Assembly: GCA_944383685.1 (NCBI GenBank)
Contig: CALWQM010000011.1
Location: 18,970-82,969 of the forward strand
Source of the DNA: an uncultured Clostridia bacterium
Lineage (GTDB): Bacteria; Bacillota; Clostridia; Christensenellales; UBA1242
Direction of reading: 5' to 3'
DNA: 64,000 bases
Every line of letters starts with the position of its first letter. Positions within the stretch are counted from its first letter, which is position 1. Below the pieces are notes generated by a model. It worked only from the letters and a program-made list of their open reading frames with translations, was not told the DNA's origin and ran no database searches. The position numbers and the translations under genes were made by a program. Below, piece by piece: positions 989-58,896 of this stretch.

Positions 989-1219
989 TTATTTTTCTTC
1001 CACTTCAATAAAGTCAAGAAGTGATGTTTTTATGCTCAAAAGATATCCCCTGATTTCAACTAGGTAAACTTTTTTTAGAATAGATTTGTTAATCACCTTA
1101 ACAACTTGTCCCGAAAGCATTCCAAGTTCCAAAAAACGGCGAATAACTTTTGTATCACCACCAGCTACCTTTTTAATTTTATATAACTTGTTTAATTGTG
1201 CATCTTTTAAAGTTGTCAT
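989..1219 (-). CDS. feoA: FeoA family iron transport protein
   Basis: 76 aa, SH3-like FeoA pattern (LGMLSGQVVKVI...V.IRG). Sits directly upstream of feoB. Confidence 0.8.
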   Translation of the reverse strand: MTTLKDAQLNKLYKIKKVAGGDTKVIRRFLELGMLSGQVVKVINKSILKKVYLVEIRGYLLSIKTSLLDFIEVEEK

Positions 1220-1268
1220 ATAAAAATTTTATGGCTTTCAAAAAACCAATATGAAAAAAAGTATAAAA

Positions 1269-1805: not shown

Positions 1806-2378
1806 CTATTTTTCTTTTATCTTAACCAAATCTTTTACGTCCTTGTTAAAATTTCCATTAGTCACCTTTATTTTTTCAATAATATAAGAAAGCATTTTAA
1901 TTATTTGTTTTTTTGAAAAATATGTAACATTTATTCGCTTTTTATTTCTCTCTCCCTTAACATCAAATTCAATATAATCTAATGCAGGGCCCCTACCGTT
2001 TACAAAAAATGAAATAGTTCCGCCTTTGGAGTTTTTTCTTGATGGTTTAAGCCTTATATCTTCAATTAAACTATAATTTAAAGTAAAACCATACTGTATT
2101 TTAAAAAATTTAAGAATCAAATAATCAGATGAAACAACCATTTCGTTTTCTGTAAGTTTTACTTTAACAAAGAAAGTTCTTATCCAAATAAACAATAAAA
2201 AAATTCCAATTAAACCGATAAAAATTGATACCACAATTTTGCCTGGCAAAAGGATATCTTCATCTGTAATAATATAGTATAGTCCAAGTATATCAATAGC
2301 TATAAAGAATAGGTATAAACATTGAATAACAATAACCAGCCCTGAAACAGGATGTAAAGTAATACTATCTTTTTTCAT
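1806..2378 (-). CDS. Hypothetical membrane protein (2-3 TM helices plus a soluble C-terminal domain)
   Basis: ORF 1806-2393. Preferred start is ATG 2378 (MKKDSITLH...) because TATAAT (2385-2390) lies 6 nt upstream of it. No family recognised. Confidence 0.5.
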   Translation of the reverse strand: MKKDSITLHPVSGLVIVIQCLYLFFIAIDILGLYYIITDEDILLPGKIVVSIFIGLIGIFLLFIWIRTFFVKVKLTENEMVVSSDYLILKFFKIQYGFTLNYSLIEDIRLKPSRKNSKGGTISFFVNGRGPALDYIEFDVKGERNKKRINVTYFSKKQIIKMLSYIIEKIKVTNGNFNKDVKDLVKIKEK

Positions 2379-2413
2379 ATTTATATTATACAAAATAAAG
2401 AAAGAAAAGGGAA

Positions 2414-10217: not shown

Positions 10218-13200
10218 TCACACACAACCATATTCACTAACTTTAATTGAAAATTGAATGCCTTGAAGATTAGTGCAAAGGTTTTGTGTGGCCATTCCAA
10301 GTTCAGTGTATGACTTAATTGTGCTTGTGTTTGAACCTAAGTTTCTTGTGTAATATTGCTTTATGCCATTCCCAAATATGTCACTTACAAGGTCACTAAA
10401 TTTAACCGAATATTTCGCTGAACCTGTCTTATTGTTCAATACATTTGACATCTCATCTGTGGATGATATAAACATATTAGCTGACTGACTTTTACTTGTT
10501 GTTCCTGTTGGGCTGAAACTTTCAACATTTGCACTGAATGTTGCTAAATATGTTGTAGATGTTACATTCTTCTTAAACTCATCTAAGGTTGTTGTGACAT
10601 AGCCAGAGTTGAGTCCAATCTCAGTTGCCGAATATTGCCCTGCATACACGATGGTATCCATAACTGCAAATGTGTCAGTGGTTGTTCCATAACCTGACGT
10701 TTGTGAAGAAGAATATGCAAGTCTCCACCTGATTGGCTCAACCTTATACCAGTTGTTTTCATTCTTGCATGCCTCTATGGTTTGATTATTATAAATAACC
10801 ACTTTCCCAACCATTGTTGTGCCATTGATATAGTATGTTCCGCCATTAGTGGTTGCACTATTAAGCTGTGAAATCAAACTGCTGTCTGTGACTTTTGTTT
10901 GTGGCATATTACCAATTTCCACATAATAGTATCCGCCTGCTGTGTCCTTTTTTGCTTCAAGGTTTGCCGTCCACTTAGCATACACTGTGTCATTTGCTGT
11001 AATATAGTTATTTGCTCCTGTGATTTGCCCTGAGCTACTCACAATTTGTGTTCCACCACCATTTGTCTCAGTGAAATATCCTCCAAAAGTGAAACCTGCT
11101 TTTGTTGGAAGAGTTGGCACTGACGTGATTGCTGTTGTTGCAGTGCTGTTTGAATACCAGCCAACACCATACTTCATATATATTGCACTTGTTCCATTGG
11201 TTGCGCCTTGCCTGTCAAGTGTCATAGTGTAAACATTGCTAACTTGGTGCAAATTGATTGAAATTGCTTGTGCTGGCATCTTGATTTCAATGTTTGATTT
11301 ATTGCTGTTTGATGTCTCAATTCCTGAAACATTTATTGTATATGATTGATAAGTGTAACCAGCATTTGAAATTATATCGTAAACTCTTACTGTTGAGCCA
11401 TATGCTATTTGCTGATAAAAATCTGTTGCATTAGTTGCCTTAACCGTGCCATTGGCACTGACATCAAAACTTCCCAAAAAATTGCTTACCCCAGAACCAT
11501 TAAGTGTCATATTAACATCAACATAATACGAATTTACTTGCCAAACGGCATAAAGCGTCATATTTTGAGAACTTGAATATCCTGGCATAATAGTATAAGT
11601 TGCGCTAGCAACATAGTCTGCACTTGTTGCTGTTGAGCTTGTCGACCAGCCTAGAAAAGTGTAACCAGTTCTCGTTGGTTCAGAACTTGTAATTGTAAAA
11701 TTCGCCGATGTGATATATGATGAGGAAACAGTCGCGTTACTCATGTTCCAATACTGTGTCACATGTTGCGAAGATATACTTCCAGAACCACCATTGACAT
11801 TATAATCTAATGTTATCGTACGAGAAGCTATCGCATATAACGAAATAGTAGAAGTTGAAGTTAATGTTACCGACTGATTTGGAGAATAAGTAAGTGAAGT
11901 CCCTGTTGAACTCGTTCTCCATCCATACAAACTCCAGCCATTTGAGGAATAAAAGGTATAATTTAAAGAAGACTGAGTAAGTGTAGAGAAACTTTGCCCA
12001 TAAGTTCTTGTTTGATTTTGCGATCTCAATGTCGTAGGAGATGTTGTGCTTCGATAATAATATGTGTTTGTGTAATCATTTATCTCCCACACAGCAAAAA
12101 GAATAGTACTATTTGAAGATGAATAAGAACGATATCCAAGTGAATATGTATCACCTGGCTCATAAGTTGCACTTGTTGCAGTTGAACTTGTTGACCAACC
12201 TAGAAAAGTATATCCCGTTCGCGTTGGCTTTGAACTTGTGATTGAAAAACTTACTGATGTCATGTATGACAAAGAAGCAGATGTGCTATACATATTCCAA
12301 TATTGAGTTGTTGTTTGCGAACTGGGGACATTCGAACCACCATTCGCATGATATGTAAGGGTAATTGTTCTTTGTGCTATTGCATAAAAGGTTTGAGTGG
12401 AGGTGGTCGTTAAGGCTATCCACTGACCAGGATAAAAATTTATTCCTGTTCCAGTTGTGCTTGCAGTTCTCCAACCATATAAACTCCAACCATTTGTGGT
12501 GTAAAAAGGATAACTTAAGGAAGATTGTGCAAGTGTTGCAAAATCTTCTTCATAATATCTTGTTTGTGTTTGAGACCTTCTAGTTGTTGGAGTTGTTGAA
12601 CTTCTGTAATAATATCTATTTGTATAACTATTCGGCTCCCATACTGCATTCATAGTAATTGTGGTTTTTCCAATTTTTTTCAACTCACTCCAAGGAATTG
12701 TTAATCCAGCAGAATATCCAACACCACCTTCTATTTCCCAACATGCAAATGTATAACCTTCTTTTTTAGGTTTTTCACGGGGCAAAGTATAATCATAACG
12801 TGCCCATGTTGTTTCAGAAGGCATACTACTACCGCCATCAGTATCAAATATAATATCTATTTCTTCCAAAAAATTAACATAAATTTCCGCCTCAAAATAT
12901 GTAGATACAGCAGATAGGGGGTCTATATTTGACAGAGTAGGATAAGTATTATCTTGCCCCCAAATATAAGTTGGACTACTTTCAGAAGCAAGCATATAAT
13001 CATCAAAAAAAGGAGCCTCTAAGGTTATAATAGGCCTCCAATTAACAGTTTTATTAAGTCTTATTTCTACATACCTATTAACTGGCCCTCCGGTCCATGT
13101 GTATCTAAAATATAATAAATTAGTTGCATATGTGTCATCGGCTGTTCCACCAGCACTGTAATATCCATAAGCAGCTGTTCTAGTTGGAGTTACACCCCAT

Positions 13201-13571
13201 GTCCTTAGAGTTCCATGGTTACTGGTCCCGTCACCTTCATGCCAGTAAGTAGAAAACCTGCCAACATCAAGATACCTTGACCGTATTTGACTATAACTTA
13301 ATTCTTCACCATCAATATTATATGCCACAGCTTGAACACCAAAACTTACACCTTGTGCCGATATCTCGTCTCCATCTTCTTGATTCTCATTATCAAAGTT
13401 ATTGTCAAAATTATCATTGTTTATATCACTTGGATTGCCTTCATTTTCATTGTTCTCTTCATTACCTTCTTGGGAATAAGATTGATTGCAGCCTGCTAAA
13501 AGGAAGGCACTTCCAGTGAGTGCAGTCCCAATAAACAAAAATGAAAATAAAACCAAAAACAACTTTTTCAT
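10218..13571 (-). CDS. Large surface lipoprotein with Listeria-Bacteroides (InlB B-repeat/Flg_new-like) repeats and a DUF6273-like C-terminal domain
   Basis: Signal peptide with lipobox LLAGC, then an Asn/Asp/Glu-rich linker. Repeated GYTFLGWSTSSTATSA.Y motifs. C-terminal YKVEPIRWRL motif. Confidence 0.8.
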   Translation of the reverse strand: MKKLFLVLFSFLFIGTALTGSAFLLAGCNQSYSQEGNEENNENEGNPSDINNDNFDNNFDNENQEDGDEISAQGVSFGVQAVAYNIDGEELSYSQIRSRYLDVGRFSTYWHEGDGTSNHGTLRTWGVTPTRTAAYGYYSAGGTADDTYATNLLYFRYTWTGGPVNRYVEIRLNKTVNWRPIITLEAPFFDDYMLASESSPTYIWGQDNTYPTLSNIDPLSAVSTYFEAEIYVNFLEEIDIIFDTDGGSSMPSETTWARYDYTLPREKPKKEGYTFACWEIEGGVGYSAGLTIPWSELKKIGKTTITMNAVWEPNSYTNRYYYRSSTTPTTRRSQTQTRYYEEDFATLAQSSLSYPFYTTNGWSLYGWRTASTTGTGINFYPGQWIALTTTSTQTFYAIAQRTITLTYHANGGSNVPSSQTTTQYWNMYSTSASLSYMTSVSFSITSSKPTRTGYTFLGWSTSSTATSATYEPGDTYSLGYRSYSSSNSTILFAVWEINDYTNTYYYRSTTSPTTLRSQNQTRTYGQSFSTLTQSSLNYTFYSSNGWSLYGWRTSSTGTSLTYSPNQSVTLTSTSTISLYAIASRTITLDYNVNGGSGSISSQHVTQYWNMSNATVSSSYITSANFTITSSEPTRTGYTFLGWSTSSTATSADYVASATYTIMPGYSSSQNMTLYAVWQVNSYYVDVNMTLNGSGVSNFLGSFDVSANGTVKATNATDFYQQIAYGSTVRVYDIISNAGYTYQSYTINVSGIETSNSNKSNIEIKMPAQAISINLHQVSNVYTMTLDRQGATNGTSAIYMKYGVGWYSNSTATTAITSVPTLPTKAGFTFGGYFTETNGGGTQIVSSSGQITGANNYITANDTVYAKWTANLEAKKDTAGGYYYVEIGNMPQTKVTDSSLISQLNSATTNGGTYYINGTTMVGKVVIYNNQTIEACKNENNWYKVEPIRWRLAYSSSQTSGYGTTTDTFAVMDTIVYAGQYSATEIGLNSGYVTTTLDEFKKNVTSTTYLATFSANVESFSPTGTTSKSQSANMFISSTDEMSNVLNNKTGSAKYSVKFSDLVSDIFGNGIKQYYTRNLGSNTSTIKSYTELGMATQNLCTNLQGIQFSIKVSEYGCV
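11535..12632 (-). repeat. Intragenic tandem duplication (2 x ~183 codons) inside the surface lipoprotein gene
   Basis: Residues ~314-497 (NSYTNRYYYRSSTTPTT...LFAVWEI) and ~498-679 (NDYTNTYYYRSTTSPTT...LYAVWQV) align end to end. Confidence 0.8.
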
Positions 13572-13577
13572 ATTTTG

Positions 13578-13606
13578 ATTTTATCAAATCCCCCCCCCCG
13601 AGTCAA
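13578..13606 (-). promoter_or_regulatory. Sigma-A-type promoter with a G10 tract in its 17-bp spacer; -10 lies 6 nt from the ATG
   Basis: Minus strand reads TTGACT c GGGGGGGGGG atttga TAAAAT caaaat ATG. The C-run on the plus strand is 13590-13599. Confidence 0.6.
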
Positions 13607-23533: not shown

Positions 23534-24946
23534 TTATTTATAATTATCCGGCAAATCATTTTCAAATAAAACAATATCATTTGCTTGCAATATTTTTTTC
23601 AATATTTCTTTTTGCTCTTTCCTTGACTTTGCATGATAAACATTTTTCATGTCAAAATTTTCCGCTTTAAGCCCTTCTATAATAGCTTTATAGTTTACTT
23701 CATTCATCACAACAACAATATCACAAACTTTCGCAACAAGCTTTGCAATTTCAAAATTCATATCAAATTGTTTGCCACCAAGTTCAACCATACCTGGTGT
23801 TACCAAAATTTTCTTAGCATGGAACTTACTTAACACATCAAGCGCCTGTTTAAACCCTTCAAAATTACTGTTATAAGAATCATCAATAATGTTAGCATAT
23901 CCCTTAATTAATTCCATTCTGTGAGGTATTGCTTTAAGAAGTGAAATACCTTTTTTTATATCTAACAAATTCACCCCAAGAAGATATGCCAAGGCTGAGG
24001 CTGTGACTATATTATCAACACTCGCTTTTCCCAATAAATTTGTGGAAACTTCAATGCTTTGGCTTTCAATATGCAAGTTGAAATACGTTTTTAAGTTTTT
24101 GAAATTCACATTTGTTGCATAAGCAAAAGAGTTCTCTTCACCTATTAAATATTTTTTCTTTTCACAACGTTCATAAAGTTTTTTGTTTGAATCACTTTTG
24201 GCATTGATAATCATAAAATCTTGCACATTTTCACAAATCTCAAATTTGGTGTTTTCAACATTTTCCAAGGTCTTAAAGGTTTCAATGTGACAATTCCCAA
24301 CTGGGGTGAGAACACCATAATCTGCGCCAACAAGCTTGCAAAGAAATTCTATATCGCCAATATGCCTAGCCCCCATTTCCACAATAAAAAAATCATCTTT
24401 CTCTGTAAGGTTTTCTAGTATCGTTTTGCAAACTCCCATTGGCGTATTGTAACTTTTGGGTGTTGCACAAACTTTAAACTTTTGAGATAAGATTTGAAAC
24501 AAAATGTTTTTTGTGCTTGTTTTACCAAAACTCCCTGTTATTGCAATTTTCTTACACGGCATGGTTTTAAGTTTATTTTTCGCTTTTTTAATATATGAAC
24601 ATATTATCAACTTTTCAGCTGGAAGAATTAGATAATGAGTTATTATCATAAGCACTGGCAAAAATATTATACCCACAAACATAACAATTAAATTTAAATA
24701 ATATTTTGTTAAAAAGTAAAAAATTAATGAAAAAATAATAAAAAATAGCAAAAATTCGCAAAAAATATATCTTTTTATGCGATTTGTTAAAACCAATTTA
24801 TTTTTATCTCCAAAAGCCAAATTGAATTTAAATACTCTTGAAACAAATTTAAGTGGTTTGTAATTTTCAAGTTGATACACTTTGATCAGTGGCAAGCTGA
24901 GCAAAACCATAGCAACCGAATAGAAAAATCCTGCTAAAAAGACCAT
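23534..24946 (-). CDS. murF: Mur ligase, probable MurF, with an N-terminal multi-TM segment
   Basis: ITGSFGKTSTK P-loop plus Mur ligase middle and C domains. Directly upstream of ddl. The first ~110 aa are hydrophobic helices. Confidence 0.75.
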   Translation of the reverse strand: MVFLAGFFYSVAMVLLSLPLIKVYQLENYKPLKFVSRVFKFNLAFGDKNKLVLTNRIKRYIFCEFLLFFIIFSLIFYFLTKYYLNLIVMFVGIIFLPVLMIITHYLILPAEKLIICSYIKKAKNKLKTMPCKKIAITGSFGKTSTKNILFQILSQKFKVCATPKSYNTPMGVCKTILENLTEKDDFFIVEMGARHIGDIEFLCKLVGADYGVLTPVGNCHIETFKTLENVENTKFEICENVQDFMIINAKSDSNKKLYERCEKKKYLIGEENSFAYATNVNFKNLKTYFNLHIESQSIEVSTNLLGKASVDNIVTASALAYLLGVNLLDIKKGISLLKAIPHRMELIKGYANIIDDSYNSNFEGFKQALDVLSKFHAKKILVTPGMVELGGKQFDMNFEIAKLVAKVCDIVVVMNEVNYKAIIEGLKAENFDMKNVYHAKSRKEQKEILKKILQANDIVLFENDLPDNYK

Positions 24947-25671
24947 TATTCCCCCTTATTTATAAAACTCTTCATTTCCTTTAAAAACTTATATTTGTTG
25001 TCATTAAAACAAAAATGCCCACTGTTTTCTATGAACACTAATTTACTTTTTCTAATTTTTTTATGAAGTTTTTTTGCCATATAACAGGGTGTCGTCTTGT
25101 CGTTTTTACCAAATATAATCAATGTTTTAGCTTCAACATTAGGCAAGAAATCATCCAATGTCGTTTTAACAATACTGTTAAAAACCTTTCTCATATCCTC
25201 ATCAAGCGCAAGATAATCACAACTCCCAAACTTACTGACATCTAAGTGAAGTTTTCTTCTCATTTTATAACGCCAAATTTTAAAGTAATATGATGGTTTT
25301 CTGTGCGGTTTAATTCCAGCGCTATCTATTAAAACAACTTTTTCCACTCTTGATTTGCAAAATGCGGAATATAGAATTGCAACTCGCCCGCCAAATGAAT
25401 GCCCTATCAGGTTAACTTTATGTATTCCTAAATGTTCACAAAGTGAAACAACCATTGTGGTGTATGAGAAAATTGTCCACCCTTTTATTTTTTTCTCACT
25501 TTTACCAAAAGGCGGAAAATCAACAAAAAGTGCAGAGTTTGGAAGATAGTCTTTACAAAAAAATAGCGACTCATAATTTGCACCCCAACCATGCAAATAA
25601 ACATCACAAACAGCACTGTTTTTGTTTATGTAACGATAAAAAATTCGACAGTTTTTATACTTATAAATCAT
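24946..25671 (-). CDS. Alpha/beta hydrolase
   Basis: GHSFGG nucleophile elbow. Its stop overlaps the murF start. Confidence 0.7.
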   Translation of the reverse strand: MIYKYKNCRIFYRYINKNSAVCDVYLHGWGANYESLFFCKDYLPNSALFVDFPPFGKSEKKIKGWTIFSYTTMVVSLCEHLGIHKVNLIGHSFGGRVAILYSAFCKSRVEKVVLIDSAGIKPHRKPSYYFKIWRYKMRRKLHLDVSKFGSCDYLALDEDMRKVFNSIVKTTLDDFLPNVEAKTLIIFGKNDKTTPCYMAKKLHKKIRKSKLVFIENSGHFCFNDNKYKFLKEMKSFINKGE

Positions 25672-25775
25672 ATTCTCATTTTATGCCCAATCTAATTTTA
25701 AGTTACCTTGAAAGATAATTTTAAATGCCTTTAAGCAAAATAAAATTGTCAAAATTTAAAAGTGTTAGAATTTTT

Positions 25776-27035
25776 CTAGTAAATAAACTTATTTTCATAT
25801 AAACTTGCTGGCAAATCACCTGCACCAATAAACACCAAAACATCTTCTTTTTTTAAGGTTGTGAACAAGGTTTTCATAAGTATCTTTAAATTTGAACAAT
25901 ATTTTAAATTTTTATTTTCAATAAGTTCACTCAGCCTTTTTGCGCTTATGCCATCTTTAACATTTTCCCTTGCTTCATAAGTTTTAAATAGTATCAAATT
26001 ATCTACCTTTTCAAACAGCTTTTTAAAGTCTTTCAAAAGCGTTAAAGTTCTTGAATAAGTATGGGGTTGAAAAATATATACAATCTTTTTGCCCTTAAAA
26101 ACTTTCTCACAAGTTTTTATTGTGTTTTTTATTTCAGTTGGGTGATGTGCATAGTCCACTATCACAGTGTTAAAATATTTGCAATTAACTTTTTCAAATC
26201 TTCTTTTTACCCCTTTGAAACTTTCAAGCCCCTTTTTAATAATGCAATCAGGCAGATTTAGAAGTTTACATACCCTGTATGCATAAATACAGTTAAAAAC
26301 ATTAACTTCTTCACAGATGTTCATATTTAAAGATAAGCATTTTTTCTTTTCATGATAAATTGAAAAGCATAACTTTCCATTTTTATACCTTATATTTGAA
26401 GGGTAATAACTTGAATCTTGCTCAACAACAAACTTGCTTTGCTTCATAAAAGTTTTAAAGGAATTTAGTTCATTTGAAAAGGTTTTGAAATAGTCCATAT
26501 GCTCTTTTTCAATATTTGTAACAACACTAATATAAGGATACAAATATAAAAAATTATCATGATATTCACATGCTTCTGTAACAAAATATTTTTTATCACC
26601 AACAACAACATTTGTCTTTTCTTCGCATAAAACACCACCCAAATGCAGTGTGGGTCTTTCACCAGCCTCTTTCAAAACATTATATATCAATGCTGTTGTG
26701 GTGGTCTTTCCATGAGAACCAGCAACTGCTATCACATTTTCGTAAGAATTTGCTATTTTACCAAGCATTTCTCCACGGCTCAAAATTTTTTTATTTAGTT
26801 TTTTAGCATAAATCATGTCGCAATTATCACCTTTAATTGCAGATGAAAAGGCCACAACATCCGCCTTTGCAATCTCTTTTAAATTACTTTCATAAAAAAT
26901 CTCAATTCCATAAGCCTTTAAAATTTCATTTTTTGTTATCAAATCGCTTCCACAAACATGATTTCCTTGTTGTGCCAAAAGAACTGCTAGAGCACTCATG
27001 GAAATGCCGTTTATCCCAATAAAATAATAATTCAT
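25776..27035 (-). CDS. murC: UDP-N-acetylmuramate--L-alanine ligase
   Basis: GINGISMSALA, AGSHGKTTTT, DYAHHPTEI motifs. Confidence 0.9.
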   Translation of the reverse strand: MNYYFIGINGISMSALAVLLAQQGNHVCGSDLITKNEILKAYGIEIFYESNLKEIAKADVVAFSSAIKGDNCDMIYAKKLNKKILSRGEMLGKIANSYENVIAVAGSHGKTTTTALIYNVLKEAGERPTLHLGGVLCEEKTNVVVGDKKYFVTEACEYHDNFLYLYPYISVVTNIEKEHMDYFKTFSNELNSFKTFMKQSKFVVEQDSSYYPSNIRYKNGKLCFSIYHEKKKCLSLNMNICEEVNVFNCIYAYRVCKLLNLPDCIIKKGLESFKGVKRRFEKVNCKYFNTVIVDYAHHPTEIKNTIKTCEKVFKGKKIVYIFQPHTYSRTLTLLKDFKKLFEKVDNLILFKTYEARENVKDGISAKRLSELIENKNLKYCSNLKILMKTLFTTLKKEDVLVFIGAGDLPASLYENKFIY

Positions 27036-27158
27036 ACCATTTTTTATGAATTTAAAATTTTATTTGACAATATTTAAAATTTGTTTGAATTATTTTCATT
27101 ATATGCTATAATTTACTTAACCGTAGAGGTTAAATTTAAAAAAGGAAGGTATAAACAG

Positions 27159-27428
27159 TTGAAAATCACAGACATTAGAGTAAGACTTGTAAACAACAAT
27201 GAAAAACTTAAAGCGGTTGCCTCAATCACAATCGACGACGAACTTGTTGTTCACGACATCAAAGTCATCAATGGTAAGGATGGATATTTCCTTTCAATGC
27301 CATCAAGAAAAACTAACGAGGGAGAATTTAAAGACATTGTTCACCCAATCAAAACCGAAGTTAGGGAACATTTGAAGGAATTGATTCTTGCTGAATATGA
27401 AAAAGCACTTGCAAGTGAACAAAACTAA
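27159..27428 (+). CDS. spoVG: Septation/sporulation protein SpoVG
   Basis: (M)KITDIRVRLVNNNEKLKAVASITIDDELVVHDIKVI.G..G.FLSMPSRK. TTG start 7 nt after AGGAAGG. Confidence 0.9.
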   Translation: MKITDIRVRLVNNNEKLKAVASITIDDELVVHDIKVINGKDGYFLSMPSRKTNEGEFKDIVHPIKTEVREHLKELILAEYEKALASEQN

Positions 27429-27439
27429 GTGTGAATATT

Positions 27440-27468
27440 AAAAAAGTATGCGAACTGCATACTTTTTT
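27440..27468. terminator. Bidirectional terminator between spoVG and ypeB
   Basis: AAAAAAGTATGCgaacGCATACTTTTTT-type hairpin. Confidence 0.7.
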
Positions 27469-27478
27469 ATTCTTTTTG

Positions 27479-37507: not shown

Positions 37508-38086
37508 TTATAAAACATTTTCAATATAATCTAAAATTCTGTCCTTTCCAAAAAAGTTTTCGCTGGAAAAAGGAAGGACAAGTTCTTTTCTTACCCCAAG
37601 GTGCTTTGCAATTTTGCCAGCACTTTGTGGAATTTTGCTCTTTGCAAGTTTGTCCACCTTTGTCATTATTATCATGTAAGGAATTTGATAGTGATTTAAA
37701 AAATTAATCATCATTTTGTCAAGTTCGCTTGGCTCATGCCTGCAATCAATCAAAACAAAAACAGTTTTAAGCAAGGTGGAATTTAACAAATATTTTTCCA
37801 TAAGCCCCGCCCAATTTGCAATGTGCTTTTGCCCAGTTTTTGCATAGCCATAGCCTGGCAGGTCAACAAACTTAAAACTGTTATTTATAACAAAATAGTT
37901 TATCATTTTTGTCAGTCCTGGGGTTGATGAAGTTTTCGCCAAATTTTTGACACCTGTGAGAGCATTAATAAGAGAGGATTTGCCGACATTACTTCTGCCC
38001 ACAAAAGCAAACTCCACCATATCATCGTTTAAAATATTTTTCTCGTCAACAACACTTGTTAAATACTTTGCACTTGTTATATTCAT
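37508..38086 (-). CDS. engB: Ribosome biogenesis GTPase YsxC/EngB
   Basis: GRSNVGKSSLINAL, DLPGYGYA, TKVDK motifs. Confidence 0.9.
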   Translation of the reverse strand: MNITSAKYLTSVVDEKNILNDDMVEFAFVGRSNVGKSSLINALTGVKNLAKTSSTPGLTKMINYFVINNSFKFVDLPGYGYAKTGQKHIANWAGLMEKYLLNSTLLKTVFVLIDCRHEPSELDKMMINFLNHYQIPYMIIMTKVDKLAKSKIPQSAGKIAKHLGVRKELVLPFSSENFFGKDRILDYIENVL

Positions 38087-38125
38087 GTTTTGATTATAGC
38101 ATAAATTTTTTAAAAGGACAATCTT

Positions 38126-38806
38126 TTAAAGAATAACATAAAACAAAATTGAAACAAATTGAAGACAACTGCCGAGAAGCACAAACAAATGCCACACAGA
38201 GTGAATGTATTTCACCTTATGCCCAAAGGCAAAAAAGATTGCACCCACTGTGTATGCAATTCCGCCAAAAAGTAGCCACAAGATTCCATTGAACTCCAAA
38301 TTTCTTGAAAGTGGAGCAAAGGCAATCACTATGCACCACCCTAAAAGAAGATAAAGCACCATGCTGAAATTTTTCCATTTATACATGTTGACTGAATTTA
38401 GAACTATCCCCAAAATGGACAATGCCCAAACAAAGGCAAAAATGCCGTATCCCCATGCTGGCTCTCCCCGCAAAGCAATTAAGCAAAAGGGAGTATATGA
38501 GCCTGCAATCAACAAAAATATTGAACAGTGGTCAAAAATACGAAAAACCTTCTTTGCCTTGTTGGGTCTTAAAAAATGATAAATTGCACTCATGGTGTAA
38601 GTTATTATCATGCAAAAACCATAGACATACATGGCAAAAACACCAAGCCAATCACTATGTAGATGTGCAAACACAACCCCAATAACCAAAAATATTATTC
38701 CAAAAGACGCACCCACAATGTGAGTTACAGCGTTGAAAATTTCTTCTCCCTTTGTGAAAGAAGGAAGTGATTTATCATAAACTTTAACTTTTGCATCAGC
38801 TTTCAT
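38126..38806 (-). CDS. Hemolysin III / PAQR family membrane protein
   Basis: 7-TM protein with FNAVTH, YH and HLFV motifs. Confidence 0.85.
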   Translation of the reverse strand: MKADAKVKVYDKSLPSFTKGEEIFNAVTHIVGASFGIIFLVIGVVFAHLHSDWLGVFAMYVYGFCMIITYTMSAIYHFLRPNKAKKVFRIFDHCSIFLLIAGSYTPFCLIALRGEPAWGYGIFAFVWALSILGIVLNSVNMYKWKNFSMVLYLLLGWCIVIAFAPLSRNLEFNGILWLLFGGIAYTVGAIFFAFGHKVKYIHSVWHLFVLLGSCLQFVSILFYVIL

Positions 38807-38918
38807 AACAATTTAATTATAGCCAACAATATTTATTAAAATCAAATTATTTCAAAAATTTTAAATATTTTTTTGAAATTGTTTGGATATTTGATTTAAA
38901 ATATGTATAATTTAATCT

Positions 38919-39374
38919 ATGAAAAACTTTATACAAATTGTTAAATTCACATTGTTCTCTATATCTGCTGGTATAATTCAAATTGGCACTTTTGCCCTTT
39001 TTGACTATGTTTTCAAATGGCCATATTGGGTTGCGTATCTCACATCCTTGGTGCTTTCGGTGATATGGAACTTCACCTTTAACCGCAGATTCACCTTTAA
39101 AAGTGCAAAAAACATTCCTTTTGCAATGTTTCTTGTCTTTCTATATTACCTTGTTTTCACTCCACTTTCCACACTTTGGGGAAATGCACTTGAAAGCATA
39201 GGCGTCGAAGACATTTTGGTGACCGCTTTTTCTATGATAATTAACTTTGTTACAGAATTTTTATATCAAAAATTTGTTGTCTATCACAATGCGGAAAACA
39301 CCAATGATTTGGCAAAAAATGAAGCTGAACAGAGTTTTGATAAAATTATGAAAGTTTTAAAAACAGATTTATAA
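38919..39374 (+). CDS. GtrA family membrane protein
   Basis: 151 aa, 4 TM helices, WNFTFNRRFTF motif. Confidence 0.8.
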   Translation: MKNFIQIVKFTLFSISAGIIQIGTFALFDYVFKWPYWVAYLTSLVLSVIWNFTFNRRFTFKSAKNIPFAMFLVFLYYLVFTPLSTLWGNALESIGVEDILVTAFSMIINFVTEFLYQKFVVYHNAENTNDLAKNEAEQSFDKIMKVLKTDL

Positions 39375-40829: not shown

Positions 40830-41423
40830 ATGAGTGAAATTGATATTTTAAACGATAATATTACAGAAATGAGAGAATTAAAAAATAGCCCAGATAAGAT
40901 AAAATCTACTTTGATTGTTGGTTTAACAAAAATGGATTTTGCAATTATATTGAGTAAACATTACAAAGATATAATTGATAAAAATTTCACCCTTTTCTCA
41001 GGATACATAAAATGTTCACACTACTATATCAAAGAAATTAATGATGAAACCGCAATTATTTTCAATGATTTTTCAATATATAATTTGGACACAAAAAATA
41101 ATAAAATTACTTTTTTACCAAAAGAAACAAAAGAGTATCGTGAAGGATTTTTTGAATATCTTGCAGTAAAAGATAGACAGAGGGCAAAAAAATATCTTGC
41201 AGGTTTAACAGATTTTGTTGAAACAAATAAATCACAAGAAATAAAAATTTTAGATATTGTTAAGTATGAAATTGAAAAACGCAATGGAGAAATTAAAACT
41301 AGCTCAAATAATCCGCATTTAGTAAACGATTCAAACTATTTAAAAGTTGTTCAAAAAAGTCTTAAAGAGGAAACATCTTGGTTCAAATTTTATAATGATA
41401 TATTAAATAAAAACGTAGAATAA
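40830..41423 (+). CDS. Hypothetical protein (197 aa)
   Basis: ORF with an RBS. No family recognised. Confidence 0.5.
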   Translation: MSEIDILNDNITEMRELKNSPDKIKSTLIVGLTKMDFAIILSKHYKDIIDKNFTLFSGYIKCSHYYIKEINDETAIIFNDFSIYNLDTKNNKITFLPKETKEYREGFFEYLAVKDRQRAKKYLAGLTDFVETNKSQEIKILDIVKYEIEKRNGEIKTSSNNPHLVNDSNYLKVVQKSLKEETSWFKFYNDILNKNVE

Positions 41424-43858: not shown

Positions 43859-44518
43859 TTATTTTTTATATTTTTCACAATTTAAAATGTTGTTTTCTGT
43901 GAAATAATCATACAACTGATTGAAATTACCCGAGTTATAATGTAAATATTGAACACCCGCCTTTTTTGCTGGCAAAATGTCATGTGAATAGCTGTCTCCA
44001 ACCATTAAAAGTTCTGTTGATTTGATATTTTCTTTCTTAATAATATCTAAAAGAATTGGAACTTTTGATTTATCTTCTGCAAGTAAATCGGCAGATAAAA
44101 CCTCTTTAAAAACTGCTCTATCAATTTTATATTTGTCAAAGTAAAAATCAAGATAATTTTCATTAGACATTGAAAGACAATAAATTTCATAGTGCTTGCT
44201 TAATTCTTTCAAAAAATCATTAGAAATAACTTCAACTTCACAAGGATGAACATAAACATTTTCTTTCACAAGGCTTAAAAACTTTTCATAGTCATAACCT
44301 TTTTGTTTCAACAAGGTAATAATATGGTCAATATGCACATTCCCTTGAAAAACTTTAACACTTGCATCCAAAAGCTCTTTTGCTTCCTTATGAGGTAAAA
44401 TTTTTTCAAGAATTTTCAAAACATGATTATTGTAATTTGTCCAAACATCACCATTATAAAGAGTGTTATCAAAATCAAAAACAATAACCTTAATCTTTTG
44501 CAACATTTTATTATTCAA
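43859..44518 (-). CDS. HAD family hydrolase
   Basis: VFDFDNTLY (motif I) and VGDSYSHD (motif IV). Confidence 0.75.
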   Translation of the reverse strand: MNNKMLQKIKVIVFDFDNTLYNGDVWTNYNNHVLKILEKILPHKEAKELLDASVKVFQGNVHIDHIITLLKQKGYDYEKFLSLVKENVYVHPCEVEVISNDFLKELSKHYEIYCLSMSNENYLDFYFDKYKIDRAVFKEVLSADLLAEDKSKVPILLDIIKKENIKSTELLMVGDSYSHDILPAKKAGVQYLHYNSGNFNQLYDYFTENNILNCEKYKK

Positions 44519-45179
44519 TTCCTTTTAAAATATTAATCGCTTTAAATCTGTCTTTTGCATTATATACATAAGAACCTGACACAATTATGTCAACTCCCAA
44601 GTCCCTAAGTTTGCCAGCATTTTTTTCATTCACTCCACCATCAAACTCAATCTTAAAGTCAAGATTGTTATCCACTTTAAATTTGTAAATTTCTGCCACC
44701 TTATCATAGGTTTCAAACATAGTTTCTTGCCCACTTGCACCAGGTTCAACACCCATAACCAAAATGATGTCCGCACTATATGCAAAGGCCCTAATTTCTT
44801 TAAAAGGAGTTCCCGGATTTAAACTTATTCCAGCAAGAGCATGACTTTTTTTGATGTAGTCAATAGCTTCCGCCAAAAGGTCTTTATCTTTAAAAGCCTC
44901 ATAGTGAACAGTCACAATGTTTGCCCCAGCATTTATATATTTTGAGACCTCGTTTGCTGGTTCATTAACCATCAAATGGCAGTCAAGCATAATGGCACTT
45001 GCACTGTTGATTGATTTGACAACATTATAGTCATAAGTGTTCTTTGAAACAAAGTTTTCATCCATAATATCACAATGCAAAAACTCTGCATGCCCCTGCA
45101 TAAGTTTTGCATATTCCACAATGTTTTGAAAGTCGTCAATAGGGTCAGTTGAAACGGCAATGTCCACAATCTTTTTCAT
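44511..45179 (-). CDS. rpe: Ribulose-phosphate 3-epimerase
   Basis: HCDIMD, DCHLMV, PGASGQ, DGG motifs. Confidence 0.9.
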   Translation of the reverse strand: MKKIVDIAVSTDPIDDFQNIVEYAKLMQGHAEFLHCDIMDENFVSKNTYDYNVVKSINSASAIMLDCHLMVNEPANEVSKYINAGANIVTVHYEAFKDKDLLAEAIDYIKKSHALAGISLNPGTPFKEIRAFAYSADIILVMGVEPGASGQETMFETYDKVAEIYKFKVDNNLDFKIEFDGGVNEKNAGKLRDLGVDIIVSGSYVYNAKDRFKAINILKGIE

Positions 45180-53717: not shown

Positions 53718-54028
53718 TTATCCTCTTTCAAAGGTTCGTGATAAAAAATTTCCTTGCCGTGTTTTACTGCATAATCAATTTCTCTTTGGGTGTTTTCGCC
53801 AACATATCCCCCAATGTTAACAACATAAATAGCATTTGAAAGGTCAATTTTCTTGAAATGCGCTTTAACAATCTTTTCATATTCCTGTTTTTTCAGGTTT
53901 TCACTCATAAAATCATAAACACATTGAAGAACACAATAACCAAACTTAGTCTCCAAATTTTTTGCAATTTTAATCATTTCATTTTGATATTTCATGCTTC
54001 CACAAATTGTGATTATCTTCATTTTCAT
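53714..54028 (-). CDS. Small uncharacterised protein (possibly a nucleoside 2-deoxyribosyltransferase-like fold)
   Basis: ICGSMKY...SNAIYVVN.GGYVGENT..EI.YA pattern. Assignment from memory only. Confidence 0.35.
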   Translation of the reverse strand: MKMKIITICGSMKYQNEMIKIAKNLETKFGYCVLQCVYDFMSENLKKQEYEKIVKAHFKKIDLSNAIYVVNIGGYVGENTQREIDYAVKHGKEIFYHEPLKEDK

Positions 54029-54393
54029 TTGTTATCTTTTAAAACCTCACTTGCTAATTTTGTATAGGCACGAACAAGCCCGCCCGCGCCCAGTTTTATT
54101 CCGCCAAAATACCTGACCACAAACACGCAAACATCACTTATTCCTTTCTTTTGAATAACTGAAAGAATAGGTCTGCCAGCAGTGGAATTAGGCTCGCCAT
54201 TGTCAACCGCTTTTTCCAAAAATGGGCTTTTAAGCGAATATGCATAACAAATATGCGTGGCTTTTTTATGTTCTGTCCAAAGTTCTTTTAATGCACTTTC
54301 AACTTCTTGAACAGTTTTGCAATTTAGCCTATAACTAATAAATTTAGACTTCTTTTCAACAAATTCAGTAACATTATCAAACTTCACATTCAT
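54025..54393 (-). CDS. yigZ: IMPACT/YigZ family protein (N-terminal domain only)
   Basis: KKSKF......C......V......HKKATH.CYAY...DNGEP..TAG.PIL...VVRYFGGIKLGAGGLVRAY. Confidence 0.8.
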   Translation of the reverse strand: MNVKFDNVTEFVEKKSKFISYRLNCKTVQEVESALKELWTEHKKATHICYAYSLKSPFLEKAVDNGEPNSTAGRPILSVIQKKGISDVCVFVVRYFGGIKLGAGGLVRAYTKLASEVLKDNK

Positions 54394-54485
54394 GGCAATA
54401 TTTTATCAAATTACTTTAAAAAAAGCAACTAAATGATTTATTTATTAAATAAAATTATATATATAAATATATCTTAGTTCAATTA

Positions 54486-57736: not shown

Positions 57737-58594
57737 TTACTCATCTTTTTTATTACTTTCAAAAATTTCATTGAAGTCATAATATTTATCATCGTGTTTC
57801 ACCCCAAGCATTGTATCAACTTGGCAGTTATGAATACTTTTAAAAATATGATTTTCAACTTCTGGAATTTGCTCTTTCAAAGCTTTAATCAACTTTTTCA
57901 TGTTGAGTCTTGCAGAAGGCGAAATTTCATCTTCATCCAAATTGCATTTTTCGGTAAACCTACAAGCACACTGCAAGAACTTTAAATCGTTATAATTTTT
58001 CCATGCAATTATATCATCTTCATGAACACAATAAAGCGGACGAATAAGTTGCATCCCCTCAAAGTTTTGCGACCAAAGTTTTGGTGGCATTGCTTGGAGT
58101 TGTGCCCCGTAAAACATTCCCATAAGTGTTGTTTCAATAACATCACTGTAATGATGCGCCAAGGCAATTTTATTGCAACCAAGTTTCTTTGCTTCGTTAT
58201 ATAAATATCCCCTTCTCATTCTTGCACAAAGATAGCAAGGTGATTTTTCAATATTCACAACACTATCAAAAATATTGGTTTCAAAAATTGTTAATGGAAT
58301 TTCCAACATCTCTGCATTATGCTTAATTTGTTCCAAATTTTTTTCATTGTATCCAGGATTCATACAAAGATAGACAACTTCAAACTTTGTTTCACTGATT
58401 TTTTTCAACTGTTGCATAAGCTTGGCAAGAAGCATACTATCCTTTCCACCAGAAACACAGACAGCAATTTTGTCACCATCTTCCACAAGATTATATCTTT
58501 TAAGTGCAACAATAAATTTTGCCCAAATGGACTTACGAAATCTTTTCATCAAACTTCTTTCAACAAGTTGTGCTTTTGTTAAAACTTTTTCCAT
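57737..58594 (-). CDS. ttcA: PP-loop ATPase, tRNA 2-thiocytidine synthase TtcA family
   Basis: SGGKDS PP-loop plus CYLCARMRRG and CACRF cysteine motifs. Confidence 0.8.
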   Translation of the reverse strand: MEKVLTKAQLVERSLMKRFRKSIWAKFIVALKRYNLVEDGDKIAVCVSGGKDSMLLAKLMQQLKKISETKFEVVYLCMNPGYNEKNLEQIKHNAEMLEIPLTIFETNIFDSVVNIEKSPCYLCARMRRGYLYNEAKKLGCNKIALAHHYSDVIETTLMGMFYGAQLQAMPPKLWSQNFEGMQLIRPLYCVHEDDIIAWKNYNDLKFLQCACRFTEKCNLDEDEISPSARLNMKKLIKALKEQIPEVENHIFKSIHNCQVDTMLGVKHDDKYYDFNEIFESNKKDE

Positions 58595-58896
58595 GTTTAA
58601 ATTTTACTCTTTTTACGCACAAAATTCAAGAAAAATTGAAAAATAAGTTATAATTTCACATTTTATTTCTTTTTAACATTTTCAATTTCTTTTTCTTCAC
58701 TTAATATTGAAGCCAAAGGGTCTTCATTTTTCTTTTTAAACCATTTAAAAATACTCATATCTTTAATATGTGCAACAAGCTGAATATTATAGATAGAAGA
58801 AAAAATAAAATTGTCAACAGTTTGGTCGAATACAAAAAATATTAAATTTAATTAAATATAATAGTTTTGTTCATGAACATTAAAAAGGAGAGAGAA

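What the first reader, a model, noticed from the sequence alone, without database searches (positions are those of the whole stretch)
38084..38921. Recurrent '-35 / 17 nt / -10 / 6-9 nt / ATG' architecture with no Shine-Dalgarno: many genes appear to be leaderless
**Exemplar locus.** Three genes in this span share the layout.
- engB: TTGTCC-17-(TGc)TATAAT-6-ATG, with the -10 at 38093-38098.
- hlyIII: TTGATT-18-TATAAT-9-ATG, with the -10 at 38816-38821.
- gtrA: TTGGAT-17-TATAAT-7-ATG, with the -10 at 38906-38911.

**Same layout elsewhere in the window.**
- feoA: TAAAAT-6-ATG, -10 at 1226-1231.
- Membrane protein starting at 2378: TATAAT-6-ATG.
- Surface lipoprotein: TTGACT-17-TAAAAT-6-ATG.
- Alpha/beta hydrolase: TAAAAT-6-ATG, -10 at 25678-25683.
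- murC: TTGTCA-17-ATAAAA-6-ATG, -10 at 27042-27047.
- yigZ: TTGCTT-17-TAAAAT-6-ATG, -10 at 54400-54405.
- ttcA: TTGAAT-17-TAAAAT-6-ATG, -10 at 58601-58606.

**Interpretation.** None of these has a GGAGG-like element, whereas most other genes here have strong ones. Transcription normally starts about 7 nt after the -10, so these mRNAs would begin at or within 1-2 nt of the AUG. A fixed 6-nt offset recurring at about 7 of roughly 70 genes is far beyond chance. Abundant leaderless mRNAs are known for Actinobacteria and Deinococcus but are considered rare in Firmicutes.
Basis: partly seen in the sequence, partly recalled or inferred. Interest (0 to 1): 0.6.

Follow-up and report, generated by a model that had tools for sequence, protein, structure and literature searches.

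The report
Leaderless genes in reduced gut Clostridia
About 4-5% of the genes of this 1.1-Mb uncultured gut Clostridia genome (Candidatus Caccovivens group, family UBA1242) have a full promoter ending exactly 6 bases before the ATG and no ribosome-binding site, so their mRNAs very probably start at the start codon; this is a known mode of gene expression, found here in a lineage where it had not been noted.

Summary
In the window, seven genes have a -10 hexamer exactly 6 nt before the ATG: engB, feoA, the membrane protein at 2378, the 1117-aa lipoprotein, the alpha/beta hydrolase, yigZ and ttcA. gtrA has 7 nt and hlyIII 9 nt. murC is weak.

Genome-wide, 40 of 864 long ORFs have a TAnAAT-type hexamer at spacer 6, against about 9 at control spacers. 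Thirty of these also carry a TGn extension and/or a TTG -35 at 16-18 nt, against 2.7 at controls (Poisson p about 2e-21). Thirty-eight of the 40 start with ATG.

The layout is conserved. engB keeps it in about 57 of 65 related MAGs and gtrA in most of 34. Where it is lost, a Shine-Dalgarno sequence appears, sometimes with GTG or TTG.

Across 146 other Clostridia genomes the same motif shows no preference for spacer 6 (2290 versus 2176 hits at spacer 12). In five genomes of this family the counts are 161 versus 17.

The best reading is genuine leaderless mRNAs at roughly 7-12% of recognisable promoters, similar to streptococci (about 9%) and far below Actinobacteria. This is a new member of a known kind, of moderate interest.

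The parts
38093..38121 (-). engB promoter: -35 TTGTCC (38116-38121), 17-nt spacer, extended -10 TGCTATAAT (38093-38101). It fills the 39-bp gap after the hlyIII stop codon.
   Evidence: conserved in 16/18 congeneric species and about 57/65 related MAGs
37508..38086 (-). engB (YihA/EngB GTPase) CDS. The ATG at 38084-38086 lies 6 nt after the -10; no SD.
   Evidence: MMR_HSR1 from residue 26; orthologues align from residue 1
38816..38845 (-). hlyIII promoter: TTGATT-18-TATAAT, 9 nt before the ATG at 38806. The predicted leader is about 2-3 nt.
   Evidence: orthologues in relatives mostly have SD-led starts
38126..38806 (-). hlyIII-family membrane protein CDS
   Evidence: PF03006 from residue 18
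38883..38911 (+). gtrA promoter: TTGGAT-17-TATAAT, 7 nt before the ATG at 38919
   Evidence: TATAAT-6/7-ATG in most of 34 orthologous loci
38919..39374 (+). gtrA-family CDS
   Evidence: PF04138 from residue 9
989..1231 (-). feoA CDS (989-1219) with TAAAAT (1226-1231) 6 nt before the ATG; no clear -35 or TG
1806..2390 (-). Membrane protein: ATG at 2378 preceded by TATAAT (2385-2390) at 6 nt. The open frame also reaches a TTG at 2393 that overlaps the -10.
10218..13606 (-). 1117-aa surface lipoprotein CDS (10218-13571) with TTGACT (13601-13606)-17 (G10 tract)-TGATAAAAT-6-ATG
   Evidence: a paralogue at C2:125670 has the same layout
24946..25683 (-). Alpha/beta hydrolase CDS (24946-25671) with TAAAAT (25678-25683) at 6 nt; no TG or -35, so a weaker candidate
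25776..27047 (-). murC CDS (25776-27035). The proposed -10, ATAAAA (27042-27047), is poor. No SD either. Status unresolved.
   Evidence: (Mur_ligase from residue 3)
54025..54428 (-). yigZ (UPF0029) CDS (54025-54393) with TTGCTT-17-TGATAAAAT (54400-54408)-6-ATG
57737..58629 (-). ttcA (PP-loop) CDS (57737-58594) with TTGAAT (58624-58629)-17-TAAAAT (58601-58606)-6-ATG
   Evidence: not conserved as leaderless in other genera of the family

Best explanation
These genes are transcribed from ordinary housekeeping-sigma (sigma-A/sigma-70 type) promoters. Many of these have a TGn-extended -10 and a TTGaca-like -35 at 17 bp. The -10 hexamer occupies positions -12 to -7 relative to the A of the ATG.

RNA polymerase therefore starts at, or within 1-3 nt of, the start codon. 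The mRNA has no 5' untranslated region and no Shine-Dalgarno sequence.

Translation must then begin by direct binding of a ribosome with initiator tRNA to the 5'-terminal AUG. This is the known leaderless pathway and it demands AUG.

**Shown:**
- the promoter anatomy;
- its exact register and its statistical excess;
- the ATG bias;
- conservation of the layout, and its replacement by SD in relatives;
- the restriction of the signal to this family within Clostridia.

**Inferred:**
- the actual 5' ends;
- the translation mechanism.

**Scale.** About 30-45 genes of about 1,050 are affected, roughly 7-12% of recognisable promoters. They are mostly low-abundance housekeeping genes: the GTPases EngA and EngB, RsfS, RecF, uracil-DNA glycosylase, a pseudouridine synthase, TtcA, a XerS-like recombinase and a sigma factor. 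Surface lipoproteins are also among them.
For: - **Spacer profile.** There is a sharp peak at 6 nt: 40 hits against 4-15 at the neighbouring spacers 1-5 and 7-10.
- **Promoter elements.** 24 of the 40 have TGn, 22 have a -35 TTG, and 38 of the 40 start with ATG. With TG and/or -35 required, the counts are 30 against 2.7 per control spacer, p about 2e-21.
- **Bimodal distance.** The -10-to-start distance shows a spike at 6, almost nothing at 9-15, then leadered promoters from 16 nt. Of promoters with TG, -35 and -10 all present, 17 of 139 (12%) fall at 5-8 nt.
- **Gene-calling-free test.** TGNTANAAT-N6-ATG occurs 34 times, against 5-7 at in-frame spacers.
- **engB.** The layout is kept in 16/18 congeners despite 55-80% protein identity. 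The two exceptions have SD, one with GTG. 12 other families of the order have SD. About 57/65 named MAGs keep it.
- **gtrA.** The layout is kept in most of 34 loci. Three exceptions have SD, two of them with TTG.
- **N-termini.** Pfam domains begin at residues 1-26 of the called proteins.
- **Class-wide contrast.** The N6 and N12 counts are 161 and 17 in family f1, and 2290 and 2176 in 146 other Clostridia genomes.
Against:
- Some listed cases are weak: murC has no proper -10, and the alpha/beta hydrolase and feoA have neither -35 nor TG.
- hlyIII, at spacer 9, would carry a 2-3 nt leader.
- ttcA is not leaderless-type in other genera of the family, so the state turns over.
- No terminator separates hlyIII from engB, so engB may also sit on a read-through transcript.
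Confidence: 0.8

Rival explanations
1. Leadered mRNAs with a non-SD, AT-rich element. Transcripts would start further upstream or read through from the upstream gene, and the TAnAAT box just before the ATG would act at RNA level as an unstructured or S1-binding translation enhancer, not as a promoter.
For: - Several cases lack a -35 or TG (feoA, alpha/beta hydrolase).
- engB follows hlyIII with no terminator between them.
- An S1 homologue is present.
Against: - 30 of 40 spacer-6 boxes carry DNA-level promoter features (TGn one base upstream, TTG at 16-18 bp), against 2.7 at control spacers.
- The register is fixed to one base, as expected for start-site selection and not for an RNA enhancer.
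- Divergently oriented genes with no upstream co-directional gene, such as gtrA, show it too.
Confidence: 0.08
2. The promoters are real but the true start codons are wrong. Translation would begin at a downstream in-frame SD-led codon, so the first ATG lies in a short leader.
For: A few spacer 4-6 cases have a strong SD-led in-frame start 4-16 codons downstream, for example C4:25350, C12:2396 and C5:50712.
Against: - Most spacer-6 genes have no downstream SD candidate.
- Pfam domains and orthologue alignments start at residues 1-26 of the long form.
- The ATG and the first codons are conserved while upstream sequence is not.
Confidence: 0.07
3. Chance or artefact: AT-rich intergenic DNA throws up TAnAAT often, and TAAAAT at spacer 6 contains an in-frame TAA that by construction makes the next ATG the 'first start'.
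For: - 25 of the 40 spacer-6 hexamers begin with an in-frame TAA or TAG stop, most of them TAAAAT.
- The genome is 32% G+C.
Against: - In-frame control spacers 3, 9 and 12 give 6, 7 and 11 hits.
- Stop-free hexamers also peak at spacer 6 among spacers up to 10 (15 hits against 1-10).
- TG and -35 co-occur.
- The layout is conserved across species.
- 146 other Clostridia genomes, including AT-rich ones, show no spacer-6 excess.
Confidence: 0.03

Closest known systems
Leaderless mRNAs of streptococci (S. pyogenes, S. agalactiae, S. pneumoniae; dRNA-seq, PMC6431027, PMC4448216)
   Same: - A low-GC Firmicute with about 9% of mRNAs leaderless.
- The set is conserved between species.
- The transcripts are driven by sigma-A promoters.
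- The scale is like the 7-12% of promoters estimated here.
   Different: - There the 5' ends are mapped experimentally; here they are inferred from sequence only.
- The lineage differs: Bacilli there, a reduced-genome Clostridia family (UBA1242, Christensenellales) here.
Computationally predicted leaderless genes in bacteria (Zheng et al. 2011, PMC3160421; GeneMarkS-2 group C, PMC6028130 / bioRxiv 10.1101/193490)
   Same: - The same signature: a Pribnow box about 10 nt (6-8 nt spacer) before the start codon.
- A TG peak upstream of the -10 in low-GC genomes.
- Firmicutes that have the signal average 4.2% of genes, which matches the 4-5% here.
   Different: - Those surveys located the Firmicute signal in Lactobacillales and Mycoplasma, not Clostridia.
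- Group C genomes have 25-50% of operons leaderless, far more than here.
Actinobacteria and Deinococcus leaderless transcriptomes (M. tuberculosis, D. deserti; cited)
   Same: The same mechanism: -10 at -12 to -7, TSS on the start codon, no SD.
   Different: - There 25-60% of transcripts are leaderless and GUG starts are tolerated.
- Here the share is under 12% and the starts are almost only ATG.
Cultured Clostridia with mapped TSS (solventogenic clostridia PMC9045289; C. phytofermentans PMC5171806)
   Same: The same class, the same promoter type, and a minority of leaderless transcripts.
   Different: - There the share is 2-4%, and in C. phytofermentans these genes usually keep an RBS and another upstream TSS.
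- The 5' UTR mode there is about 32 nt.
- Here there is a clear SD-free class, and the predicted leaders of the other genes are very short (about 10-17 nt).

Membership tests
Bacterial leaderless genes/mRNAs | -10 promoter hexamer ending 6-8 nt upstream of the start codon (TSS on or next to the start codon) | tested here: met
   There is a spike at spacer 6 (40 hits; 30 with TG and/or -35) against a control mean of 2.7-8.8. The exemplar coordinates were verified.
Bacterial leaderless genes/mRNAs | No Shine-Dalgarno sequence before the start codon | tested here: met
   84 of the 87 first starts with a -10 at spacers 4-9 have no SD core, and none of the spacer-6 cases has one. The 6-nt spacer leaves no room for one.
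Bacterial leaderless genes/mRNAs | Strong preference for AUG as start codon | tested here: met
   ATG is the start in 38 of 40 (95%) spacer-6 cases, against 76% of all first starts. Relatives that switched to SD use GTG or TTG in 3 of the 5 sequence-shown engB/gtrA switches (G003, G015, L052, L056, L086).
Bacterial leaderless genes/mRNAs | Primary transcript 5' end mapped at the start codon | not testable with these tools
Bacterial leaderless genes/mRNAs | Protein made from the 5'-terminal AUG | not testable with these tools
   There is only indirect support: Pfam and orthologue alignments begin at the called N-termini.
GeneMarkS-2 'group C' genome (frequent leaderless transcription) | A promoter box at about -10 from the start in a large share (about 25-50%) of first genes in operons | tested here: not met
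   The estimate is 5% of putative first genes to 12% of full-consensus promoters. This is well below group C levels.

The most novel reading that the evidence does not exclude
The family UBA1242 consists of reduced-genome (0.8-1.3 Mb), probably partner-dependent gut Clostridia. It may have undergone a lineage-specific expansion of leaderless gene expression, together with a shrinkage of the remaining 5' UTRs to about 10-17 nt, as part of genome streamlining. Some genera show 43-66 TGNTANAAT-N6-ATG hits per Mb, against about 6.6 per Mb elsewhere in the class, and may use it much more than the genome studied here. That would make this the first Clostridia lineage with streptococcus-level or higher leaderless usage, and a natural test case for how SD-led and leaderless initiation interconvert gene by gene.
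Probability: 0.45. Interest if true: 0.45.

Novelty: new member of a known kind. Interest (0 to 1): 0.35.

Why it matters
**Annotation.** SD-trained gene callers may mis-place or mis-score such SD-free starts in these MAGs. My own SD-first rule moved engB, hlyIII, ttcA and murC to internal codons.

**Biology.**
- The contrast between this family and other Clostridia, all with similar sigma-A promoters, shows that leaderless usage can rise sharply within one family.
- The engB and gtrA series give natural examples of a gene flipping between 'promoter-6-ATG' and 'SD + ATG/GTG/TTG'.
- This is useful material for studying how initiation modes evolve.

It does not change the known mechanism.

Tried and rejected
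- **16S anti-SD check.** The assembly has no 16S gene. SD use is nevertheless evident at most genes.
- **SD-first start-calling rule.** Rejected. Chance internal 5-mers displaced true starts, as for engB, hlyIII, ttcA and murC. Counts were redone on first starts with spacer controls.
- **Gene-calling-free count with plain TANAAT.** Too noisy, because of coding-region periodicity. Only the TG-extended form is informative.
- **Ribosomal protein S1 form as the cause.**
  - Within the order, low-scoring stand-alone S1 coincides with the spacer-6 excess.
  - At class level it does not hold. Family f27 and G164 have weak or no S1 hits but no excess, and f48 has normal S1 with a mild excess.
  - Rejected as a general explanation.
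- **ttcA as a second conserved leaderless orthologue across genera.** Not supported: other genera have SD-led or operon-internal ttcA.

Full report
**Setting.** The window is C11:18970-82969 of a 1.13-Mb, 17-contig, 32% G+C assembly that is 99% complete. Related loci carry names such as Candidatus Caccovivens and 'uncultured Clostridia/Christensenella/Catabacter' from animal and human gut. Ca. Caccovivens is GTDB genus UBA11517, family UBA1242, order Christensenellales (PMC8035907). This family has been described as reduced-genome, spore-forming and probably partner-dependent (PMC12306168).

**Check of the observation.** All quoted motifs are present at the stated places.
- Exactly 6 nt separate the -10 hexamer from the ATG at engB, feoA (minus strand, CDS 989-1219), the membrane protein at 2378, the 1117-aa lipoprotein (13571), the alpha/beta hydrolase (25671), yigZ (54393) and ttcA (58594).
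- gtrA has 7 nt and hlyIII has 9 nt.
- murC is the weak item. Its 'ATAAAA' lacks the conserved first T, and the gene has neither a good -10 nor an SD.
- engB, yigZ and the lipoprotein gene also have the TGn extension. A -35 TTG at 17 bp is present at these three and also at ttcA and gtrA.
- An independent consensus scan ranks the hlyIII, engB and gtrA promoters as top-scoring sites of the 2.1-kb region; a fourth site, an alternative gtrA promoter at 38873-38902, ties with them at 10 of 12.
- Pfam domains start at residues 3-26 of the called proteins, so the start codons are reasonable.

**Genome-wide statistics.** I took 867 non-overlapping ORFs of at least 100 aa and used the first start codon of each.
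- A TAnAAT-type hexamer (at least 5 of 6 matches, with T1, A2 and T6) sits at spacer 6 in 40 ORFs.
- The counts at spacers 1-5 and 7-10 are 4-15. The in-frame control spacers 3, 9 and 12 give 6, 7 and 11. The in-frame TAA inside TAAAAT therefore does not create the peak.
- Of the 40, 24 have TGn, 22 have TTG at 16-18 bp, 16 have both, and 38 start with ATG.
- Requiring TG and/or -35 leaves 30, against a control mean of 2.7 (Poisson p about 2e-21).
- Measured from SD-aware starts, the -10-to-start distance is bimodal: a spike at 6, almost nothing at 9-15, then a broad mode at 16-27.
- Among promoters with TG, -35 and -10 all present within 150 nt of a start, 17 of 139 (12%) lie at 5-8 nt. With looser promoters the share is 33 of 449 (7%).
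- As a share of genes, about 30-45 of about 1,050 (4-5%) are affected.
- The window, with 7-9 such genes out of about 65, is richer than average.

**Which genes.** The spacer-6 set includes:
- EngA, EngB and RsfS;
- RecF and uracil-DNA glycosylase;
- a pseudouridine synthase and TtcA;
- YigZ and FeoA;
- a PAP2 phosphatase and an ABC ATPase;
- a sigma-70-family factor and the XerS-like recombinase;
- two giant lipoproteins whose promoter spacers hold poly-G tracts.

**Comparative evidence.**
- engB, within the genus: in 18 other species (55-80% protein identity), 16 keep TTG-17-TGnTAnnAT-6/7-ATG although the surrounding bases differ. The other two have an SD instead, one of them with a GTG start.
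- engB, within the order: in 12 other families (1.4-3.2 Mb genomes), most have a clear SD before engB and none shows the promoter-6-ATG layout.
- engB, in named MAGs: about 57 of 65 keep the layout.
- gtrA: TATAAT-6/7-ATG is present in most of 34 loci. Three exceptions have SD, two of them with TTG.
- This coupling is what the leaderless mechanism predicts: ATG when leaderless, any start codon when SD-led.
- The state is not fixed for every gene. hlyIII orthologues are mostly SD-led, and ttcA is SD-led or operon-internal in other genera of the family.

**How unusual within Clostridia.** I counted TGNTANAAT-N6-ATG and used the same motif with N12 as an in-frame control.

| Group | N6 hits | N12 hits |
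|---|---|---|
| 19 species of the genus | 462 | 126 |
| 12 other families of the order | 149 | 90 |
| 5 family-f1 genomes in the class sample | 161 | 17 |
| 146 genomes of 68 other families in the class sample | 2290 | 2176 |

- Within the order, the excess is carried by three small-genome families.
- In the class sample of 151 Clostridia genomes, the excess per Mb is 21-41 in f1, against 0.4 +/- 2.9 (maximum 9.3) elsewhere.
- Across 29 genera of the family, N6 hits range from 8 to 66 per genome of about 1 Mb. The trait is therefore family-wide but uneven.

**Comparison with what is known.**
- The signature is the one described for bacterial leaderless genes, a Pribnow box 6-8 nt before the start.
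- Zheng et al. found such genes in 56 of 209 Firmicutes, at an average of 4.2% of genes. They were concentrated in Lactococcus/Streptococcus, Oenococcus/Leuconostoc and Mycoplasma, with a strong TG peak.
- dRNA-seq gives about 9% leaderless mRNAs in three streptococci, conserved between species.
- Cultured Clostridia show 2-4%.
- GeneMarkS-2 placed only 36 of 1064 Firmicutes in its leaderless 'group C', whose members have 25-50% of operons leaderless. This genome does not reach that level.
- I found no mention of leaderless expression in the one paper on UBA1242 genomes that I searched for the term (PMC12306168: 0 occurrences); the other UBA1242 and Caccovivens papers listed were not checked for it.

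**Verdict.** It is a known mechanism in a lineage where it had not been noted. Its use is clearly elevated relative to other Clostridia but modest in absolute terms.

Noticed in passing
whole genome; e.g. window 44511-45179 and 40830-41423: Leadered promoters sit very close to their genes. The -10-to-start distance has its second mode at 16-23 nt, which implies 5' UTRs of only about 10-17 nt that begin almost at the SD. Solventogenic clostridia have a mode of about 32 nt. This suggests general 5'-UTR compaction in this reduced genome.
   Followed up: partly
G000:C12:42265-43260 and relatives: The ribosomal protein S1 homologue is a stand-alone protein of about 350 aa with a low score (about 170 bits) in this genus. 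Most Clostridia have a 640-840-aa frame scoring 260-400 bits. Within the order this coincides with the spacer-6 excess, but the link fails at class level (f27, G164, f48).
   Followed up: yes
window 38087-38125: The whole engB promoter is packed into the 39-bp gap between the hlyIII stop codon and the engB ATG, with no terminator-like hairpin in between. engB may therefore also be present on read-through hlyIII transcripts, from which it would lack any SD.
   Followed up: no
window 13572-13606 and G000:C2:125620-125670: Two paralogous giant lipoprotein genes (1117 and 1194 aa) share the layout TTGACTC-G(9-10)-ATTTG(A/G)TAAAAT-6-ATG. A slippage-prone poly-G promoter spacer is thus combined with a leaderless start.
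   Followed up: partly
L036:9951-10003 (CAZFRA010000014.1): One relative has TGATATAAT-6-GTG at engB, with no SD. This is a possible GUG-initiated leaderless mRNA and the only such case among 65 loci.
   Followed up: no
window 25776-27478: murC has neither an SD nor a proper -10 before the start supported by Pfam (Mur_ligase from residue 3). A 440-bp gap with a 115-aa plus-strand ORF lies upstream. How murC is expressed is unexplained.
   Followed up: no
whole genome: Secondary bumps of -10-like hexamers occur at spacers 0, 11 and 14 (19, 25 and 19 hits). They have few TG or -35 partners and are unexplained. They may be AT-rich sequence next to SD regions or mis-called first starts.
   Followed up: no
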